Shown here in pieces: positions 34,434 to 39,480 of a DNA stretch of 42,010 bases. The notes beneath the pieces were generated by a model that searched no databases, was not told the DNA's origin, and worked only from the letters and a program-made list of their open reading frames with translations. The stretch is from positions 1 through 42,010 of the IMG/VR virus record IMGVR_UViG_3300028800_000026. One strand, given 5' to 3'. This DNA is from a virus. How positions within the stretch are numbered: position 1 is the first letter of the stretch; every line of letters begins with the position of its first letter. Made by a program: the position numbers and the translations under genes.

Positions 34434-35066
34434 ATGGAAGAAAGAGCCGAAGATATTAAGTACTTTTTAGATTATTTTGGTGGAATAGATAATCTTAAAT
34501 TGCTTCTAAATGAAGAGTTTTTTTTAAAAAATGATAAAATATATTCCAGATTAAAAGGAATTTTAATAGATTATTTTTTGAACAATAAAAATTGTGCGCA
34601 AATCGGAGAAGATCAGGAGGTAACCTCTAGCAGAATTAACCATCTCTTGAAAAAAGGACTGCGAGGCTTAAAGTCAATTTATGAAAAAGAAAAAGCCAAA
34701 AAAGAGATACTAGAACGGGGAATTCCTGATTTAAGCATACGAGAAATGAATCTCAGCTACTATACTGAAAATATATTGATTCGCTCTGGTTGCACGAATT
34801 TAAAGGATGTTTTGACTCTCACTCAAAAGAATTTTTTAAAAATTAGCGACTCCGGGAGACGGAATCTCCGAGAACTTCAGGAATGGCTAGACTCAAATGG
34901 ACTAGAAACACTTAAAGTTGGCAATGCTGACCCTAAGATTCGTAATTCAAAAAAAGACATGTGTAATTATATTATAAATATGTGCTCTGGAAAGACCTTC
35001 ACAAATGAAGAAGTTGATAAAATAGTTTGTTTTTTAAAATCTAGAGTAAAAACAGGGGACAACTAG
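34434..35066 (+). CDS. sigma region-4-like HTH fused to an RNA polymerase alpha C-terminal-domain-like (HhH) module
   Basis: ILIDYFLNNKNCAQIGEDQEVTSSRINHLLKKGLRGLK resembles sigma70 region 4.2. MNLSYYTENILIRSGCTNLKDVLTLTQKNFLKISDSGRRNLRELQEWLDSNGLE aligns by eye with E. coli RpoA [53 protein letters not shown]. Confidence 0.6.
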   Translation: MEERAEDIKYFLDYFGGIDNLKLLLNEEFFLKNDKIYSRLKGILIDYFLNNKNCAQIGEDQEVTSSRINHLLKKGLRGLKSIYEKEKAKKEILERGIPDLSIREMNLSYYTENILIRSGCTNLKDVLTLTQKNFLKISDSGRRNLRELQEWLDSNGLETLKVGNADPKIRNSKKDMCNYIINMCSGKTFTNEEVDKIVCFLKSRVKTGDN

Positions 35067-35082
35067 GGAATTCATTCCCTAG
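35063..35082. terminator. palindromic hairpin CTAGGGAA-ttca-TTCCCTAG at the stop codon of 34434-35066
   Basis: Perfect 8-9 bp palindrome with no T-run. Lies between convergent genes. Confidence 0.3.
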
Positions 35083-35153
35083 CGGCCCTGCGCCTCGACA
35101 TTTTAAGCCGACGACTTGATAGATGTTAACCTAGGCCATCTACCCATTTCAGA

Positions 35154-36293
35154 TTATGGAGAGCTAATATCATCGATAAAAGCTTCCCAGTATACAACGT
35201 CACTTGTACTTCCTGACAGATGTGAAGAAGTATCAGCAGAGGCTTGAAATACGGCATTACCCGACCCAATTATAAAACCCTGCCGTGTGTTATTAACGAA
35301 TGCACCTTGGATCGCAGGTCCATTAATCGTACTTACACCAGCCGAAAAGGTTGGGAAGACAGGACTTGGATACAATGCGCCACCGCTATACTGCACGCCG
35401 CCACTATTGATATCGCCTACGGCTAAAACTTGCGGGAACGAAAGCCCAGGAACACTAGCCACTGTTTGGTTAGTATTAAAGGCAGTCGCTGCGCTAGAAT
35501 TAGCGCTGCAAACGAATTGTGTATTGCTAGAGACCGAAGTCACATAGTAATAAACAGGCGAACCGGGAATTGAGTTGTTTGGAAGAGAATTGAGCTGAGT
35601 TGTCCCCCATGCGGCAGGAATTCTAAACGCAATCTCTTGACCTACAACAAAATTGTGATTCGTAGTAGTCGTTACAGTCGTTGTACTTCCAGTGGAAATA
35701 GCTTCAATGAAGTTTAGTCCTGGAAGATACAAAAAGGGGTAAAGCACTTTTTTAACGAATGCTCCCGCAGGAGAACCAGTTAAAGCAGTGTAATTGCTTC
35801 CACCGCCGGGCCATACGACCGAGAAGTGATCCGCATCCCCAACCGCACTAATGCGGAATGGCATACCAGAAATTTGAGGCATCCCAGTCGTCGCCGATTG
35901 GTATAATCCCTCAAACATCACTACATCCCCAACAGAATACCCGTGGGCAGTCACGTTAAAGACGATAGGATTGGCAGCGGTAGCACCGATGATCTGTTGC
36001 TGCGCACCAAATTGGAACATCAGCCCAGCACCAAACGTGCTAATACCATTGGAAGTAACAACAGCTGTAGTTAATACAGGTGTTCCGCCATTACAATAAT
36101 TGCAAATTGCAAATCCTTGCCCCATCGATACATCCCAGCTTGCGCTAGGGATCAAATGCTGGGTAAATGCCGCCGATGCGGTATAGTTATATAACTTCAC
36201 TCGAGTGGGTTGGAACGGCAGATAAATCGGCACGTTGTTCCCAGTAGCTGCAAGAGTATAGTTACCTTTCGCTGATCTTGAATATTCGCTCAT
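35154..36293 (-). CDS. virion protein with two beta-module copies, directly downstream of the capsid gene (decoration/head-fibre role suspected)
   Basis: Start at ATG 36293 (GGGAGG upstream, just after the MCP TAA). Module copies are ...ATAANPIVFNVTAHGYSVGDVVMFEGL... and ...STGSTTTVTTTTNHNFVVGQEIAFRIPAAWGTTQLN... Confidence 0.65.
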   Translation of the reverse strand: MSEYSRSAKGNYTLAATGNNVPIYLPFQPTRVKLYNYTASAAFTQHLIPSASWDVSMGQGFAICNYCNGGTPVLTTAVVTSNGISTFGAGLMFQFGAQQQIIGATAANPIVFNVTAHGYSVGDVVMFEGLYQSATTGMPQISGMPFRISAVGDADHFSVVWPGGGSNYTALTGSPAGAFVKKVLYPFLYLPGLNFIEAISTGSTTTVTTTTNHNFVVGQEIAFRIPAAWGTTQLNSLPNNSIPGSPVYYYVTSVSSNTQFVCSANSSAATAFNTNQTVASVPGLSFPQVLAVGDINSGGVQYSGGALYPSPVFPTFSAGVSTINGPAIQGAFVNNTRQGFIIGSGNAVFQASADTSSHLSGSTSDVVYWEAFIDDISSP

Positions 36294-36303
36294 GGTTCCT
36301 CCC

Positions 36304-36732
36304 TTATGCCGCAACAAAGTTACCGGCACGAGTCGAAAGCAAGTTTCGAATAGCCGTATCTTGAGTGAGCGCTTGGGCCTGTGCAAACTTCACAGCCAAG
36401 GTAGCATTTTGCGCAAGCATACCAGAATAATAAGGATCTCGATAAATTAGATTCATCGAATAGCCATCCTGGTTAATGTGCGTAATTGCTTGTTTTCCAA
36501 CAACCGTATTATAATAAACGTCTCTTCCGGAAGCCGATGACAATCTTGACACTGGCGCTTCAGAGCTCGTTAAAATACGGACGTTGTATACCGCGCCGTA
36601 CTCCGTTGGGAGTGCGTCGGTGTTGTGGCCATAATTCCATGTGGAAAGAAAGCCGCTACCTGTAAGCGAGTCGAAGTCAGGCTGAAGCTCAGTTGAACTC
36701 AGCATGAAATACGCCGAACGAACAGGACCTGT
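36304..36732 (-). CDS. MCP exon 4 (142 aa plus stop)
   Basis: TGPVRSAYFMLSSTELQPDFDSL...TEYGAVYNVRILTSSEAP...RDVYYNTVVGKQAITHI...LAVKFAQAQALTQDTAIRNLLSTRAGNFVAA. Confidence 0.85.
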   Translation of the reverse strand, partial: TGPVRSAYFMLSSTELQPDFDSLTGSGFLSTWNYGHNTDALPTEYGAVYNVRILTSSEAPVSRLSSASGRDVYYNTVVGKQAITHINQDGYSMNLIYRDPYYSGMLAQNATLAVKFAQAQALTQDTAIRNLLSTRAGNFVAA

Positions 36733-38820
36733 CAAATTCTATTACTTTTGTGACCTAGACTACAAACGTCTGGGCGGGGAAACCTCTTCGGATCTCCCTC
36801 TCATAGTTACCTATGAGTTTAGACTATCGCATCTCCGTTGCCATTCATCAAAATTAAGTGACGAATTAGCCCCATATTCTGGGATTGGAGTCTCAGGATT
36901 TAGTCGTTCAGGCTGATCTGTTTGTAAAAACGACATATCAAGTCCCTTCAGCCAACAACCACATTGCATGCAGTTTCCACCACATTTATAACAAATGCCG
37001 TCTGGCCCAGCTACTTCCATTATGTAATTCTTATCACACATCTCTTGCCCCTTGTTATCCTTCAGCCTATGCTGCAAGGAACTTCAAGTCAATTACCCAA
37101 GATTTTACTTCGGCACAAAGTTTACCGAATTTCAAACTACCTTCAATACCAGAAACGAATTTCTGAGCATTATTTGTATCAAGAGTTGCAGCCACAAGGC
37201 TAAAATCTGAGACGCCCAAATTTGTTGGGTTGTCTCCGTTTCCGCCACCGCCTGCATTGATTTCGGACGCTGCCGATACAATGTAGTCGCGGAGGATCAA
37301 ATCCTCTGCTTGGCGCATGGCTACAGCAAGACGCTCTGACACCCAGGCCAAAACACCTTCCTGATCTTGACATCATTGTTACTTAATGACTTAAGTCACT
37401 AGGTCTGGTCATTTCTGCCAGACTCTGCAATTTCATTTTATAGTTGCAGATCGGACTGTCGCATCACCTTTCGGCGTCCACTCACTCAGTCTCTCACGGT
37501 GACTTTCGTCTTCCGCCTTGTCACCCCATCGGGCTTCCAAGTCAATCAGAGCGGATTTTTAGCATTCAGTATAGCTGTAATATGCAGGATATGCTACAAT
37601 CCTTCACAAACATTCAACATAGGATTCATATGCATGATTTTTACGGAAAGGAGCTTTCTCAATATGAGGTTGGCTATCTTGCCGGGATTATGGACGGAGA
37701 AGGAACTATTCATATCTCCAGACCTATTTCTAGGGCTAAAGACTGTAAAAGTCCGATTTACCAAACTTATATAGCAGTCACCAATACTGACCAAGGCCTT
37801 CTTAATTGGCTTCAAGAAAGAATAGGAGGTATTATTCGATCCATCCCTATAGATAAAAAATCTGGAGTGGTTCGACGTCCCATTTGGAGATGGTATTGTC
37901 CTATTTGTCGTATCAAGAGTTTTTGCGAACTGCTTATTCCATATTCCGTTGTAAAAAGACGAGAGTTTGAGATTATGTATGAGATCAGAGGAACCTATCG
38001 CAATCAAGCAAAACCTGGAAAGCAAGGTGTCCAAAAAGTTCCTGATGAGGATATTTCTATTCGACATCGCTGTTACCTTGAACTTAAAGATCTTCATATA
38101 AGGCCAAATCTTCGTCATCCTAATCTACTACCTAAACGCGGTGAACCCACAAAATCCTAGGATCACCTGCTCGTTGATTCATTTTACGAGCACTTTATGC
38201 TGCACAATCTAAAATGCAGCCGGTTCCAAAAAACGCCATTTGCGCATCAATGATGTCGCGTTGTGGCACCTGTGCAGGAGGGTCAATCCCGCTATTTCCC
38301 AACTGTCTATCTGTTAACTACTTACGTTTAAGTAAGCCGAAAGCCTATTGCACTTTCGTCATTCAGTTTCCTGAATGTTCAGAGCACCGCATCTCTGATT
38401 TCCAGAGGCCAAAATCACATTTGCCTCCATATTCAGAGTCTTCTCGCTTGCTACGTTCAGGCTGACCATAGATTTCTAAAATTCTACCATTTTCATTCAT
38501 AATCCTTCTGGGAACTTCCAGGAGTATTTTTCTGAAATTATCTATTATTTTATCATCCACAGGCTTGCCCCTTCTTATCACCGTCTTTACGCTGCGACTT
38601 TGAAGTCTATCAGAGAAGATTTTACAACCACACATTTTATGGTTGGAGGAGTTAACGCCCTTGGACGCATAAAGCGGCAAGTCGTTCCCCCGTTCACTGG
38701 CATCGACACTTTGTCGCACACCAAAATATAGTTCATTGTGGGAGTCGGGGTATAAAGCATCGCAGGCGCGAGCGACTGCAATATCATTGGACCAAGGTTC
38801 CCAGTAGTAGTAATAGACAT
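36304..38820 (-). CDS. major capsid protein (HK97 fold), split gene: 4 exons and 3 group I introns. Spliced CDS is 954 nt = 317 aa.
   Basis: Exon translations match, in order, the pattern I recall for a common HK97-type capsid family (N4-gp56-type, assignment unverified): LL..A.P.LV...IP.N.GKTV.FRRY / L.EG.TP...V.A.V.QYG / D.VL.E...LLG.QA..TLD.I.RD...NA.KF...KFGT.P..AY / GE.G.LYGVRF..T.EA...DVY...V.G..A.G / ...AKIL. Confidence 0.85.
36733..37123 (-). mobile_element. group I intron C (391 nt)
   Basis: P1: exon TTCGGT (37124-37129) pairs with GCCGAA (37109-37114), with a U.G pair at the splice site. The last base is G (36733). GTAA-capped 7-bp hairpin at 36800-36817. The joined exons read ...SLKFG|TGPVRSAYF in frame. 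Confidence 0.8.
37124..37373 (-). CDS. MCP exon 3 (1 nt plus 83 codons)
   Basis: (I)CQDQEGVLAWVSERLAVAMRQAEDLILRDYI...TLDTNNAQKFVSGIEGSLKFG. The 5' boundary could instead be 37370. Confidence 0.8.
37374..38213 (-). mobile_element. group I intron B (840 nt) carrying an antisense LAGLIDADG gene
   Basis: P1: exon GCTGCAT (38214-38220) pairs with GTGCAGC (38199-38205), with a U.G pair at the splice site. The 3' end ...AAGTAACAATG resembles the ends of introns A and C. Homologous 7-bp hairpin at 37424-37450. Confidence 0.7.
37630..38160 (+). CDS. LAGLIDADG homing endonuclease, single-motif (homodimer-type), encoded antisense to its host intron
   Basis: YLAGIMDGEGTIHI lies about 15 aa after ATG 37630. 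About 176 aa, with no second LAGLIDADG motif. The track ORF extends to 37444; alternative ATG starts are at 37582 and 37591. Confidence 0.75.
   Translation: MHDFYGKELSQYEVGYLAGIMDGEGTIHISRPISRAKDCKSPIYQTYIAVTNTDQGLLNWLQERIGGIIRSIPIDKKSGVVRRPIWRWYCPICRIKSFCELLIPYSVVKRREFEIMYEIRGTYRNQAKPGKQGVQKVPDEDISIRHRCYLELKDLHIRPNLRHPNLLPKRGEPTKS
38214..38306 (-). CDS. MCP exon 2 (93-nt mini-exon: 1 nt + 30 codons + 2 nt)
   Basis: (I)QLGNSGIDPPAQVPQRDIIDAQMAFFGTGC(I) supplies the otherwise missing E-loop tip and return strand (compare L.EG.TP......V.A.V.QYG). It has no start codon, so it is absent from the ORF track. Confidence 0.7.
38307..38638 (-). mobile_element. group I intron A (332 nt)
   Basis: P1: exon CAACCAT (38639-38645) pairs with GTGGTTG (38625-38631), with a U.G pair at the splice site. 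GTAAAATCTT immediately follows, as in intron C. GAAA-capped 7-bp hairpin at 38360-38377. The last base is G (38307). Confidence 0.75.
38639..38820 (-). CDS. MCP exon 1 (60 codons + 2 nt)
   Basis: MSITTTGNLGPMILQSLAPAMLYTPTPTMNYILVCDKVSMPVNGGTTCRFMRPRALTPPT. AAAGGA lies 8 nt upstream of the ATG. Confidence 0.85.
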
Positions 38821-39108: not shown

Positions 39109-39480
39109 TTATTGCTTCGAATTCGAGTCGAATCTGTTCCAGGGAGAATGGCCCTCTAGACGTAACTTGTGAGCCATGCGGATATTGTTTGCAATCCACC
39201 CGTCGAACGTAGGGCCTAAGTAATCTTTCATGGATAAATTAGGATGATCACTTAAGAATTGATCGCAGAACTTACAGAAATTGAAGCTTTGGTCTCCGTC
39301 GAATCTAGAACGTCCCCCATTTGCATCTTCTTCACACTTGGCGCATCTCATATTCATAGAATCAATCGTGTTGGTTTTTATCGTATGGAATAATTTCTCA
39401 CAGCAACAGTTGATGCAATAGTAGTAACCATCGTAGATTTCACTTTCCAAGACATCTTCGCTACATTCCCAGCATTTCAT
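39109..39480 (-). CDS. cysteine-rich multi-zinc-finger-like protein (123 aa)
   Basis: CWEC...CINCCC...CAKC...CKFC. Confidence 0.55.
   Translation of the reverse strand: MKCWECSEDVLESEIYDGYYYCINCCCEKLFHTIKTNTIDSMNMRCAKCEEDANGGRSRFDGDQSFNFCKFCDQFLSDHPNLSMKDYLGPTFDGWIANNIRMAHKLRLEGHSPWNRFDSNSKQ

What the first reader, a model, noticed from the sequence alone, without database searches (positions are those of the whole stretch)
36733..38638. The three introns are paralogs with retargeted guide sequences and a co-varying hairpin
Introns A and C share long blocks of nucleotide identity: GTAAAATCTT right after the guide, GATAA.AAGGGGCAAG, TCAGCCTGAACG, GA.GACTC..GAATATGG.GC.AAT and GAGATGCG. All three introns share a GATGCG....TC block followed by a 7-bp hairpin. 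The hairpin sequence differs in each, but base pairing is preserved:
- A: CATTCAG-gaaa-CTGAATG (38360-38377)
- B: TCTGCAA-13 nt-TTGCAGA (37424-37450)
- C: CTCATAG-gtaa-CTATGAG (36800-36817)

The 3' ends are also similar (AAGTA..A.AAT..G). By contrast, the three P1 guide sequences are unrelated and match their own exon contexts. This pattern suggests one intron lineage spread to three ectopic sites within a single gene, by reverse splicing or endonuclease-assisted transposition. Compensatory change argues that selection acts at the RNA level.
Basis: seen in the sequence. Interest (0 to 1): 0.6.

Follow-up and report, generated by a model that had tools for sequence, protein, structure and literature searches.

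The report
Related self-splicing introns riddling a capsid gene
The phage's only major capsid gene is cut by three related group I (self-splicing type) introns plus a 34-base core-less mini-intron, and this intron family also encodes an in-frame peptide ending Ala-Ala-stop that probably marks capsid fragments made from unspliced RNA for destruction.

Summary
Introns A (38638-38307), B (38158-37371) and C (37123-36733), all on the minus strand, share the reported blocks, 3' ends and a 7-bp hairpin (P9) at the stated coordinates.

In 28 relatives, P1, P3-P6, P8 and P9 covary, and the U.G pair at the 5' splice site is invariant.

- **Four intervening sequences, not three.** The guide assigned to B belongs to a separate 34-nt core-less mini-intron (38213-38180). 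A 21-nt micro-exon follows it.
- **Not recent copies of each other.** Each intron is closer (about 87-90%) to introns in other phages than to its neighbours (40-64%).
- **A much larger family.** It occupies at least 27 sites in this capsid gene across 77 loci, and also other genes, including the experimentally spliced LittleE capsid intron.

Two further results:
- **Ala-Ala-stop leaders.** Reading from the upstream exon into A, C and the mini ends in Ala-Ala-stop. The motif is in frame in 71 of 73 elements, and some leaders resemble tmRNA tags. I found no description of this.
- **Mini-introns.** All 44 have P1, P10 and a terminal G, and each is directly followed by a core-containing intron. 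This scan has reported such minis on other genomes.

No RNA data could be obtained.

The parts
38639..38820 (-). Capsid exon 1 (aa 1-61, phase 2 at its end)
   Evidence: tblastn of intact homologues P0001 and P0037. The spliced product is 323 aa and aligns without gaps to homologues at 88-90% identity.
38307..38638 (-). Intron A, 332 nt. P1 AACCAT (38644-38639) / GTGGTT (38631-38626); P3 38619-38613 / 38445-38439; P7 AGCA / UGCU; P8 38438-38433 / 38398-38393; P9 38377-38360; terminal G at 38307.
   Evidence: The insertion site (nt 182 of the CDS) is seen only in this window among 77 loci.
38587..38638 (-). In-frame leader of intron A. Read from the exon it gives ...PPT-IKCVVVKSSLIDFKVAA-stop (GCA GCG TAA at 38595-38587).
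   Evidence: ORF 38587..38820.
38214..38306 (-). Capsid exon 2 (93 nt)
38180..38213 (-). Core-less mini-intron, 34 nt. It follows U and ends in G. P1 GCTGCAT (38220-38214) / GTGCAGC (38205-38199); adjacent P10 GATT (38209-38206) / AATC (38179-38176). In-frame read-through ...GTGCILDCAA-stop (38203-38195). Tail TGCTCGT (38192-38186) pairs with micro-exon ACGAGCA (38174-38168).
   Evidence: No match to the core HMMs.
38159..38179 (-). 21-nt micro-exon encoding (I)INEQVIL
   Evidence: Without it the protein lacks 7 invariant residues.
37371..38158 (-). Intron B, 788 nt. P1 GGTGATCCT (38167-38159) / GGGTTCACC (38148-38140). About 560 nt carrying an antisense endonuclease gene follow. The whole ribozyme core lies in roughly the last 190 nt; the model match is 37560-37421. 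P3 37555-37549 / 37483-37477; P7 GACUG / CAGUC; P9 37450-37424; terminal G at 37371.
   Evidence: (143.5 bits). Introns at the same site occur in L001 and L030, with compensatory P1 changes.
37630..38160 (+). Single-motif LAGLIDADG homing-endonuclease gene, antisense to the capsid gene. It sits between P1 and P3 of intron B. Its stop codon is the complement of the last micro-exon codon.
   Evidence: phrog_5046 E 2.3e-15; I-MsoI E 7e-5; LAGIMDGEG motif.
37124..37370 (-). Capsid exon 4 (aa 100-181)
36733..37123 (-). Intron C, 391 nt. P1 TTCGGT (37129-37124) / GCCGAA (37114-37109); P3 37102-37096 / 36897-36891; P7 GACUA (36905-36901) / UAGUC (36826-36822); P9 36817-36800; terminal G at 36733.
   Evidence: The same site is occupied in L005, L037, L043, L058 and L060.
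37067..37123 (-). In-frame leader of intron C: ...FG-KLCAEVKSWVIDLKFLAA-stop (GCA GCA TAG at 37075-37067)
   Evidence: ORF 37067..37351.
36304..36732 (-). Last capsid exon (aa 182-323 plus stop)
   Evidence: (phrog_1357 major head protein).

Best explanation
The minus-strand gene 38820-36304 encodes the phage's N4-gp56-type major capsid protein. Four RNA-level intervening sequences interrupt it.

A, B and C are homologous group I introns of one compact family. The family has no P2 and an ORF-less form of about 200 nt. Their cores are conserved, but the internal guide (the P1 strand, and usually P10) has been rewritten for each insertion site. They were drawn from a large pool of such introns circulating among related ~40-kb phages. 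That pool exchanges cores and guide modules by recombination and has colonised dozens of sites in this gene. They do not come from recent duplication inside this genome.

- **Shown:** homology, structure and covariation, the splice junctions, and the population distribution.
- **Inferred, about 0.55-0.6:** a ribosome that reaches an unspliced junction reads 6-30 codons into the intron. It terminates at a conserved in-frame Ala-Ala-stop. This gives the truncated capsid fragment an ssrA/tmRNA-like C-terminus that directs it to ClpXP-type proteolysis.
- **Inferred, about 0.5:** the 34-nt mini-intron has substrate helices only, so it is excised by the ribozyme core of intron B just downstream.
For: **Gene and junctions.** The spliced ORF is 972 nt (323 aa) and aligns without gaps at 88-90% to intact homologues. 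Every junction follows U and every intron ends in G.

**Structure.** The RNAalifold consensus of 28 relatives gives P1, P3, P4, P5, P6, P8 and P9. Double compensatory changes occur in 29 of 34 pairs, and U.G at the splice site is 28/28. A versus C alone shows compensatory P3, P4, P7 and P8.

**Family membership.** Model R1 finds only A, B and C in the window. It also finds introns in the Roseobacter phage CRP-118 ribonucleotide reductase gene, in a P22-like coat gene, and in the LittleE capsid gene. The LittleE intron is spliced in vivo according to PMC3706429.

**Population.** The 77 loci hold 104 core-containing introns at 27 or more sites.

**Ala-Ala-stop.**
- 70 of about 118 non-redundant read-throughs end in AA, against none in the other two frames.
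- The first GCN-GCN-stop motif is in frame in 71/73 elements (p 2e-31).
- Same-site length variants differ by multiples of 3 in 25/25 cases.
- Leu is at position -3 in 38/70.
- All four Ala codons and all three stop codons are used.
- The same ending occurs in other genes and in LittleE, including leaders such as ANDSSFALVA.

**Mini-introns.**
- P1 averages 7.4 bp and the adjacent P10 5.6 bp, against 1.3 bp in controls, and both covary.
- 44/44 are directly followed by a core-containing intron 18-130 nt downstream (Fisher p 9e-19).
- The predicted fold places P1 of the mini, the tail helix and P1 of B side by side.
Against: - Splicing of A, B, C and the mini in this phage is therefore inferred.
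- Rfam's group I model does not detect any of these introns, even at E 10.
- Counts of introns are not phylogenetically independent, so the p-values overstate significance.
- Against the degron reading: the mature capsid protein of this phage itself ends ...NFVAA, and the P22-like coat proteins in L083, L139 and L156 end ...VAA or ...IAA. A terminal Ala-Ala therefore cannot be lethal to a folded protein.
- About 40% of family members have an early stop without Ala-Ala.
- Against a borrowed ribozyme: the tight linkage of mini and downstream intron could partly reflect co-conversion during homing.
Confidence: 0.85

Rival explanations
1. As the first reader proposed in the narrow sense: one intron duplicated within this genome, so A, B and C are each other's direct paralogues, created by transposition inside this gene.
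For: They sit in one gene and share conserved blocks. A homing endonuclease gene is present in B.
Against: Each has far closer relatives in other phages than in its own genome: 87-90% against 40-64%. B and C have same-site counterparts in other contigs. 5' and 3' halves have different nearest neighbours.
Confidence: 0.08
2. The 34-nt element (38213-38180) is a translational bypass (ribosome hop) of the T4 gene 60 kind, not an RNA-spliced segment.
For: It is a short gap of 30-93 nt whose length is not a multiple of 3. It has an in-frame stop soon after the junction and a hairpin that includes the last exon codons.
Against: - There are no matched take-off and landing codons. In L078 the would-be take-off codon is ATA and the landing codon ATC.
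- All 30 non-redundant minis follow U and end in G.
- The guide pairs with both exon ends, and P10 covaries with synonymous changes in the first codons of the 3' exon.
- The Thr or Ile codon next to the 3' junction is kept as a codon.
Confidence: 0.07
3. The Ala-Ala-stop ending is a by-product of conserved RNA sequence (GCAGC in a stem next to a loop stop codon). Selection acts only on having a stop codon, not on the peptide.
For: In A- and C-type introns the motif lies in the P5 stem-loop. In the ~200-nt type it lies in the conserved P6'/J6-7 GCAGCGUGA. Many members manage with an immediate stop and no Ala-Ala. Native capsid proteins can end in AA.
Against: - The motif recurs in at least four unrelated sequence contexts: the P1 loop, P5, P6'/J6-7, and core-less minis.
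- Third-position variation in both Ala codons occurs with all three stops.
- The leader stays open until that point, and every indel is a multiple of 3.
- Leu, Val or Ile is preferred at -3.
- Some leaders mimic whole tmRNA tags.
Confidence: 0.25
4. The similarity of A, B and C is convergence imposed by the universal group I core, not common descent.
For: P7, J8/7 and P3 are constrained in all group I introns.
Against: Identity extends to non-core segments and to the 3' tail AAGTAACAG. Rfam's general group I model does not match them, yet a family-specific model does. A and C are 74% identical over about 330 aligned columns.
Confidence: 0.02

Closest known systems
[quoted passage not shown]
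   Same: Several closely related group I introns lie in a single phage gene, each with its own guide. Short exons lie between them.
   Different: The family here is seen at 27 or more sites of one capsid gene across a phage population. It carries in-frame Ala-Ala-stop leaders and is accompanied by core-less mini-introns. Neither feature appears in the Twort summary I could read; the original paper was not held.
Capsid-gene group I intron of mycobacteriophage LittleE (Cluster J; PMC3706429)
   Same: It is a group I intron in a major capsid gene with a ~177-aa I-CreI-like LAGLIDADG endonuclease gene on the opposite strand. It matches model R1 at 32.8 bits, E 8e-7. Splicing was shown by RT-PCR. 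Its exon read-through also ends ...TAAA-stop.
   Different: It is a single intron and only a distant family member. The endonucleases share little beyond the motif. No mini-intron is reported.
T4 td / nrdB / nrdD introns and the rule that phage group I introns carry an in-frame stop just after the 5' splice site (PMC3073962)
   Same: A stop codon halts ribosomes that enter the intron. Translation and ribozyme folding compete.
   Different: Here the reading frame is often kept open for 17-30 codons into P3-P5 or P6 and ends specifically in Ala-Ala. The review describes only a stop codon.
SsrA/tmRNA degradation tag (E. coli ANDENYALAA; C-terminal LAA read by ClpX). From general knowledge, not tested here.
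   Same: The leaders end in C-terminal (L/V/I)-A-A. Some resemble whole tags (ANDSSFALVA, NEYALLAAA, AANSAFFALTA).
   Different: The tag is encoded in cis by an intron and added by normal translation, not by trans-translation. Proteolysis is not demonstrated.
Engineered trans-excision-splicing ribozymes and 'spliceozymes' (PMC2532722, PMC4094466)
   Same: A group I core removes a segment it does not contain. The segment is defined by a U at the 5' site and a G at its 3' end.
   Different: Those are laboratory constructs that use the ribozyme's own guide. Here the mini carries its own guide (P1 + P10) and lies 18-130 nt upstream of a natural intron.
T4 gene 60 50-nt coding gap with the mobA endonuclease cassette (general knowledge)
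   Same: A short stop-containing gap lies in an essential phage gene, close to a homing endonuclease gene.
   Different: Take-off and landing codon matching is absent, and group I splice-site rules are obeyed.

Membership tests
Group I intron (A, B, C) | The 5' exon ends in U, which pairs with G of an internal guide sequence (P1) | tested here: met
   A: AACCAU / GUGGUU. B: GGUGAUCCU / GGGUUCACC. C: UUCGGU / GCCGAA. U.G is 28/28 in relatives, and all other P1 pairs covary.
Group I intron (A, B, C) | The intron ends in G (omega-G) | tested here: met
   G at 38307, 37371 and 36733. Among the 152 catalogued insertions, 133 obey both the U and the G rule.
Group I intron (A, B, C) | Conserved core P3-P8 with the P3/P7 pseudoknot and R/S-like elements (GACUA ... 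AUGCGAUAGUC) | tested here: met
   Consensus structure with compensatory changes in P3, P4, P5, P6 and P8. P7 covaries. Helices are located in the window.
Group I intron (A, B, C) | Match to the curated Rfam model Intron_gpI (RF00028) | tested here: not met
   No hit at the gathering threshold or at E up to 10, in the window or in L003. The family-specific model R1 does match.
Group I intron (A, B, C) | Self-splicing with guanosine | not testable with these tools
The only experimental support is for the distant relative in LittleE (PMC3706429).
Group I intron (34-nt mini, 38213-38180) | P1, P10, U at the 5' site and terminal G | tested here: met
   7-bp P1 and 4-bp adjacent P10 in the window. 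In 30 non-redundant minis the means are 7.4 and 5.6 bp, against 1.3 bp in controls.
Group I intron (34-nt mini, 38213-38180) | Own catalytic core (P3-P9) | tested here: not met
   34 nt leaves no room for a core. There is no match to the core HMMs. It is therefore not filed as a self-splicing group I intron, only as an element that follows group I splice-site rules.
Programmed translational bypass (T4 gene 60 type) | Identical take-off and landing codons flanking the gap | tested here: not met
   No matching codon pair fits the conserved flanks.
ssrA-like C-terminal degron | Free C-terminus ending in (hydrophobic)-Ala-Ala | tested here: met
   A ends ...KVAA, C ends ...FLAA, the mini ends ...DCAA.
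ssrA-like C-terminal degron | ClpXP/ClpAP-dependent degradation of the tagged protein | not testable with these tools
   Needs a stability assay.
LAGLIDADG homing endonuclease (ORF 37630-38160 +) | LAGLIDADG motif and I-CreI-like fold | tested here: inconclusive
   The motif is present. phrog_5046 scores E 2e-15 and I-MsoI E 7e-5, but Pfam gives no hit. The fold was not modelled.

The most novel reading that the evidence does not exclude
This phage intron family has two adaptations not described in the literature I could search.

1. The introns encode tmRNA-tag-like leaders ending Ala-Ala-stop, in frame with the upstream exon. Capsid fragments translated from unspliced RNA are therefore sent to ClpXP-type proteases.
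2. The family has spawned core-less satellite introns. These consist of a guide, P10 and a terminal G, sometimes with their own LAGLIDADG gene. They can be removed only by borrowing the ribozyme of the intron immediately downstream.
Probability: 0.4. Interest if true: 0.9.

Novelty: new variant of a known kind. Interest (0 to 1): 0.72.

Why it matters
Several related group I introns in one phage gene are a known situation, so the finding as written is a new member of a known kind.

Three things would interest a specialist.

- **Scale.** One compact intron family occupies at least 27 sites of a single capsid gene across a phage population, and guides and cores are swapped by recombination. This gives a natural data set for how group I introns reach new sites.
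- **Ala-Ala-stop leaders.** If they are degrons, they show a mobile intron paying for its own splicing failures with a protein-level quality-control device. This is directly testable with reporter fusions in clpX mutants.
- **Core-less mini-introns.** If they are excised by the neighbouring ribozyme, they would be a natural counterpart of engineered trans-excision ribozymes, and a parasite of a parasite.

There is also a practical consequence. Gene callers split these capsid genes into fragments, and the read-through ORFs ending in AA are annotated as separate proteins.

Tried and rejected
- Rfam at gathering and at E 10 on the window and on L003 gave no group I hit.
- tblastn of the last exon against 50,697 deposited phage genomes gave no match, so there is no cultured close relative.
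- Pfam and PHROGs on the small ORFs inside A and C gave nothing.
A 140-position core model was used instead.
- My nucleotide DP mis-split intron C and produced spurious pieces at the divergent 3' end of the gene and in four truncated loci. These were removed or corrected by hand.
- Automated 5' splice-site calling in the wider pattern scan is only partly reliable. Several rows are wrong, so I use those data as examples and rough proportions only.
- The Twort paper (PMC22036) is not held.
- I considered frameshifting at the mini's stop codon and rejected it. No slippery relation exists between the two frames, and the mini-encoded peptides are not conserved.
- I considered that the micro-exon was a degenerate duplicate and not real coding sequence. 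I rejected this because it supplies exactly the seven missing invariant residues in phase.
Full report
**1. The gene**

The region lies in a minus-strand gene that starts at 38820 and stops at 36304. Its last exon matches PHROG 1357, major head protein. It has hundreds of uninterrupted homologues of 319-323 aa, which sources label N4-gp56 family major capsid protein, on ~40-kb viral contigs.

Mapping intact homologues onto the window gives four large coding blocks. Translating the remaining gap shows a fifth, 21-nt block that encodes INEQVIL.

The five exons are 38820-38639, 38306-38214, 38179-38159, 37370-37124 and 36732-36304. Joined, they give a 972-nt ORF of 323 aa. It aligns without a single gap to P0001, P0003 and P0037 at 88-90% identity.

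The gene therefore holds four intervening sequences:

| Element | Coordinates | Length |
|---|---|---|
| Intron A | 38638-38307 | 332 nt |
| Mini element | 38213-38180 | 34 nt |
| Intron B | 38158-37371 | 788 nt |
| Intron C | 37123-36733 | 391 nt |

**2. Check of the observation**

- The three 7-bp hairpins are at 38360-38377, 37424-37450 and 36800-36817.
- The GATGCG block lies directly upstream of each hairpin.
- A and C share the quoted blocks at 74% column identity.
- The 3' tails are similar.

The one error concerns B. The guide that pairs with the exon ending at 38214 belongs to the 34-nt element. B has its own P1 further downstream, at 38167-38159 with 38148-38140.

**3. They are group I introns of one family**

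Rfam finds nothing, even at E 10, so I tested the structure by comparison.

A scan of IMG/VR with the last exon returned 80 related loci. About two thirds of the usable ones have the capsid gene interrupted.

Twenty-eight ORF-less insertions of 196-250 nt align well. Their consensus fold gives P1, P3, P4, P5, P6, P8 and P9.
- 29 of 34 pairs show double compensatory changes.
- The U.G pair at the 5' splice site is invariant.
- P7 (GACUN with N'AGUC) switches between G:C, A:U and U:A.
- The R- and S-like elements (GACUAA and AUGCGAUAGUC) are canonical.

A covariance model built from 26 of these relatives, none from the window, hits the 42-kb window only at three places:
- the core of B, at 143.5 bits, E 4e-31;
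- A, at 25 bits, E 5e-4;
- C, at 24.4 and 17.6 bits.

A and C score low because they carry 95-130-nt inserts in L6 and an enlarged P8.

A versus C alone shows compensatory P3 (UCUUCUC / GAGAAGA against UCUUGGG / CCUGAGA), P4, P7 (AGCA / UGCU against ACUA / UAGU) and P8.

In B, the guide is separated from the core by about 560 nt. That stretch carries a single-motif LAGLIDADG endonuclease gene on the opposite strand.

**4. How the three are related**

None of the three is the nearest relative of another.

| Intron | Closest relatives elsewhere | Identity to the window's other two introns (5' core / 3' part) |
|---|---|---|
| A | 86-87% (5' core) to introns at sites 432 and 543 of other phages; 79% at site 203 | C 64% / 50%; B 64% / 43% |
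| B | 87-88% (5' core) to introns at sites 296 and 290; 83% at site 350 | A 64% / 43%; C 58% / 40% |
| C | 90% to the site-543 intron of L005 | A 64% / 50%; B 58% / 40% |

- 5' and 3' halves have different nearest neighbours.
- Site 543 holds an A-like core in L058 but a C-like core here, behind the same guide.

Across 77 loci I counted 104 core-containing introns at 27 confidently placed sites. Twenty-nine loci carry no insertion, and others carry up to six.

Outside this gene, the family is present in:
- at least 120 further viral contigs;
- the ribonucleotide reductase gene of Roseobacter phage CRP-118, unannotated there;
- a P22-like coat gene of a spring-water podovirus;
- distantly, the capsid gene of mycobacteriophage LittleE. 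Splicing of that intron was shown by RT-PCR, and its endonuclease gene is also antisense (PMC3706429).

The spread is population-wide and involves recombination between introns. It is not recent copying within this genome.

**5. An in-frame Ala-Ala-stop leader**

Reading from the upstream exon into each element gives:
- intron A: ...KSSLIDFKVAA-stop;
- intron C: ...KSWVIDLKFLAA-stop;
- the mini...ILDCAA-stop.

Across the catalogue:
- 70 of about 118 non-redundant read-throughs end in Ala-Ala. None does in the other two frames.
- The first GCN-GCN-stop motif is in frame with the exon in 71 of 73 elements, although insertion phases differ.
- Length variants at the same site differ by multiples of three in 25 of 25 cases.
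- Leu precedes the pair in 38 of 70.
- All four Ala codons and all three stop codons are used.
- The motif lies in different structural places: the P1 loop, P5, P6'/J6-7, and the minis.

These points argue for selection on the peptide and not on one RNA sequence.

The same ending occurs in independent genes:
- ...YFLLAA in the P22-like coat gene;
- ...TAAA in LittleE;
- leaders such as ANDSSFALVA, ANDEKFALVA and AANSAFFALTA, which look like whole tmRNA tags.

The published rule is only that phage group I introns carry an in-frame stop near the junction (PMC3073962).

My reading is that a ribosome entering an unspliced intron terminates there, and the truncated capsid fragment then carries an ssrA-like C-terminus for ClpXP-type proteolysis.

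Caveats:
- The mature capsid protein of this phage also ends ...FVAA, unlike 89 of 89 full-length homologues.
- Some coat proteins end ...VAA.
- About 40% of members use an early stop without Ala-Ala.
- The counts are not phylogenetically independent.

**6. The 34-nt mini-intron**

This element follows U and ends in G. It has a 7-bp P1 with the exon end and, immediately adjacent, a 4-bp P10 with the first bases of the micro-exon. It has no room for a core.

Similar elements of 30-93 nt occur at four sites (CDS nt 264, 275, 312 and 342), 44 times in 37 loci.
- In 30 non-redundant copies, P1 averages 7.4 bp and P10 5.6 bp, against 1.3 bp in permuted controls.
- P10 covaries with synonymous changes of the 3' exon, for example ACUGG / CCAGU, ACCGG / CCGGU and ACAGG / CCUGU.
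- At site 312 some copies carry a sense-strand LAGLIDADG gene in the P1 loop and reach 987 nt.
- Every one of the 44 is directly followed, 18-130 nt downstream, by a core-containing intron. Two minis are never adjacent, and none is the last element (Fisher p 9e-19).
- The partner site varies. Minis at 264 pair with introns at 290, 296, 303, 360 or 366.
- The 3' tail of the mini pairs with the downstream exon. In the window the predicted fold puts P1 of the mini, the tail helix (with the 3' splice site in its loop) and P1 of B side by side.

A T4 gene 60-type ribosome hop is unlikely, because there are no matched take-off and landing codons and the junction codons are conserved as codons.

The best reading is excision by the neighbour's ribozyme. 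The laboratory precedent is the trans-excision-splicing reaction (PMC2532722, PMC4094466).

After I had reached this reading, I found that this scan has reported the same kind of element on at least five other genomes. Those notes agree with it but are not independent evidence.

**7. Verdict**

- As written, the finding is a new member of a known kind, with Twort and LittleE as precedents.
- The Ala-Ala-stop leaders and the core-less minis make the locus a new variant worth experimental follow-up.

Noticed in passing
window 37594-38118 (-) overlapping 37630-38160 (+): The strand opposite the LAGLIDADG gene (the capsid-sense strand) is also open for 174 codons. The same double-open arrangement is seen in all 17 related introns that carry an antisense LAGLIDADG gene. 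The sense ORF has no Pfam hit. It could be a shadow ORF or a real overlapping gene.
   Followed up: partly
window 39109-39480 (-): A free-standing 123-aa Cys-rich ORF lies about 290 nt upstream of the capsid start. It is 47% identical (E 8e-27) to an ORF carried inside the site-30 capsid intron of locus L020. There is no Pfam family. It may be a mobile gene that moves between intronic and free-standing positions.
   Followed up: partly
window 36304-36320 (-): The mature capsid protein of this phage ends ...AGNFVAA. None of 89 full-length homologues ends in Ala-Ala; only the 284-aa homologue P0005 does. This bears on the degron reading.
   Followed up: partly
window 36811-37077 (-) and 38363-38590 (-): Introns C and A each carry a small ORF (88 and 75 aa; C's has CxxC motifs) in the L6 to P8 inserts. 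Neither has a Pfam or PHROG match. They may be remnants of endonuclease genes.
   Followed up: partly
L081 2473-2872 (Roseobacter phage CRP-118, OR420741.1 about 35056-35455): The two annotated 'ribonucleotide reductase' CDSs gp44 and gp45 are halves of one gene. An unannotated intron of this family splits them (95.9 bits, E 7e-21).
   Followed up: yes
L082 2496-2712 (MW202674.1): A P22-like coat gene is annotated as two CDSs plus a 'hypothetical protein'. It is split by an intron of the same family (114.6 bits). The upstream fragment ends ...YFLLAA.
   Followed up: yes
L058 5634-6003 versus window 36733-37123: The same insertion site (CDS nt 543) and the same guide carry an A-type core in L058 and a C-type core in the window. 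This is evidence for core swapping between introns.
   Followed up: partly
L003 3425-4411, L024, L034, L052, L067 (site 312): Core-less elements of 946-987 nt carry a sense-strand double-motif LAGLIDADG gene (Pfam PF00961, E 2e-8) inside the P1 loop. Each lies 38-54 nt upstream of a ~200-nt ORF-less intron.
   Followed up: partly
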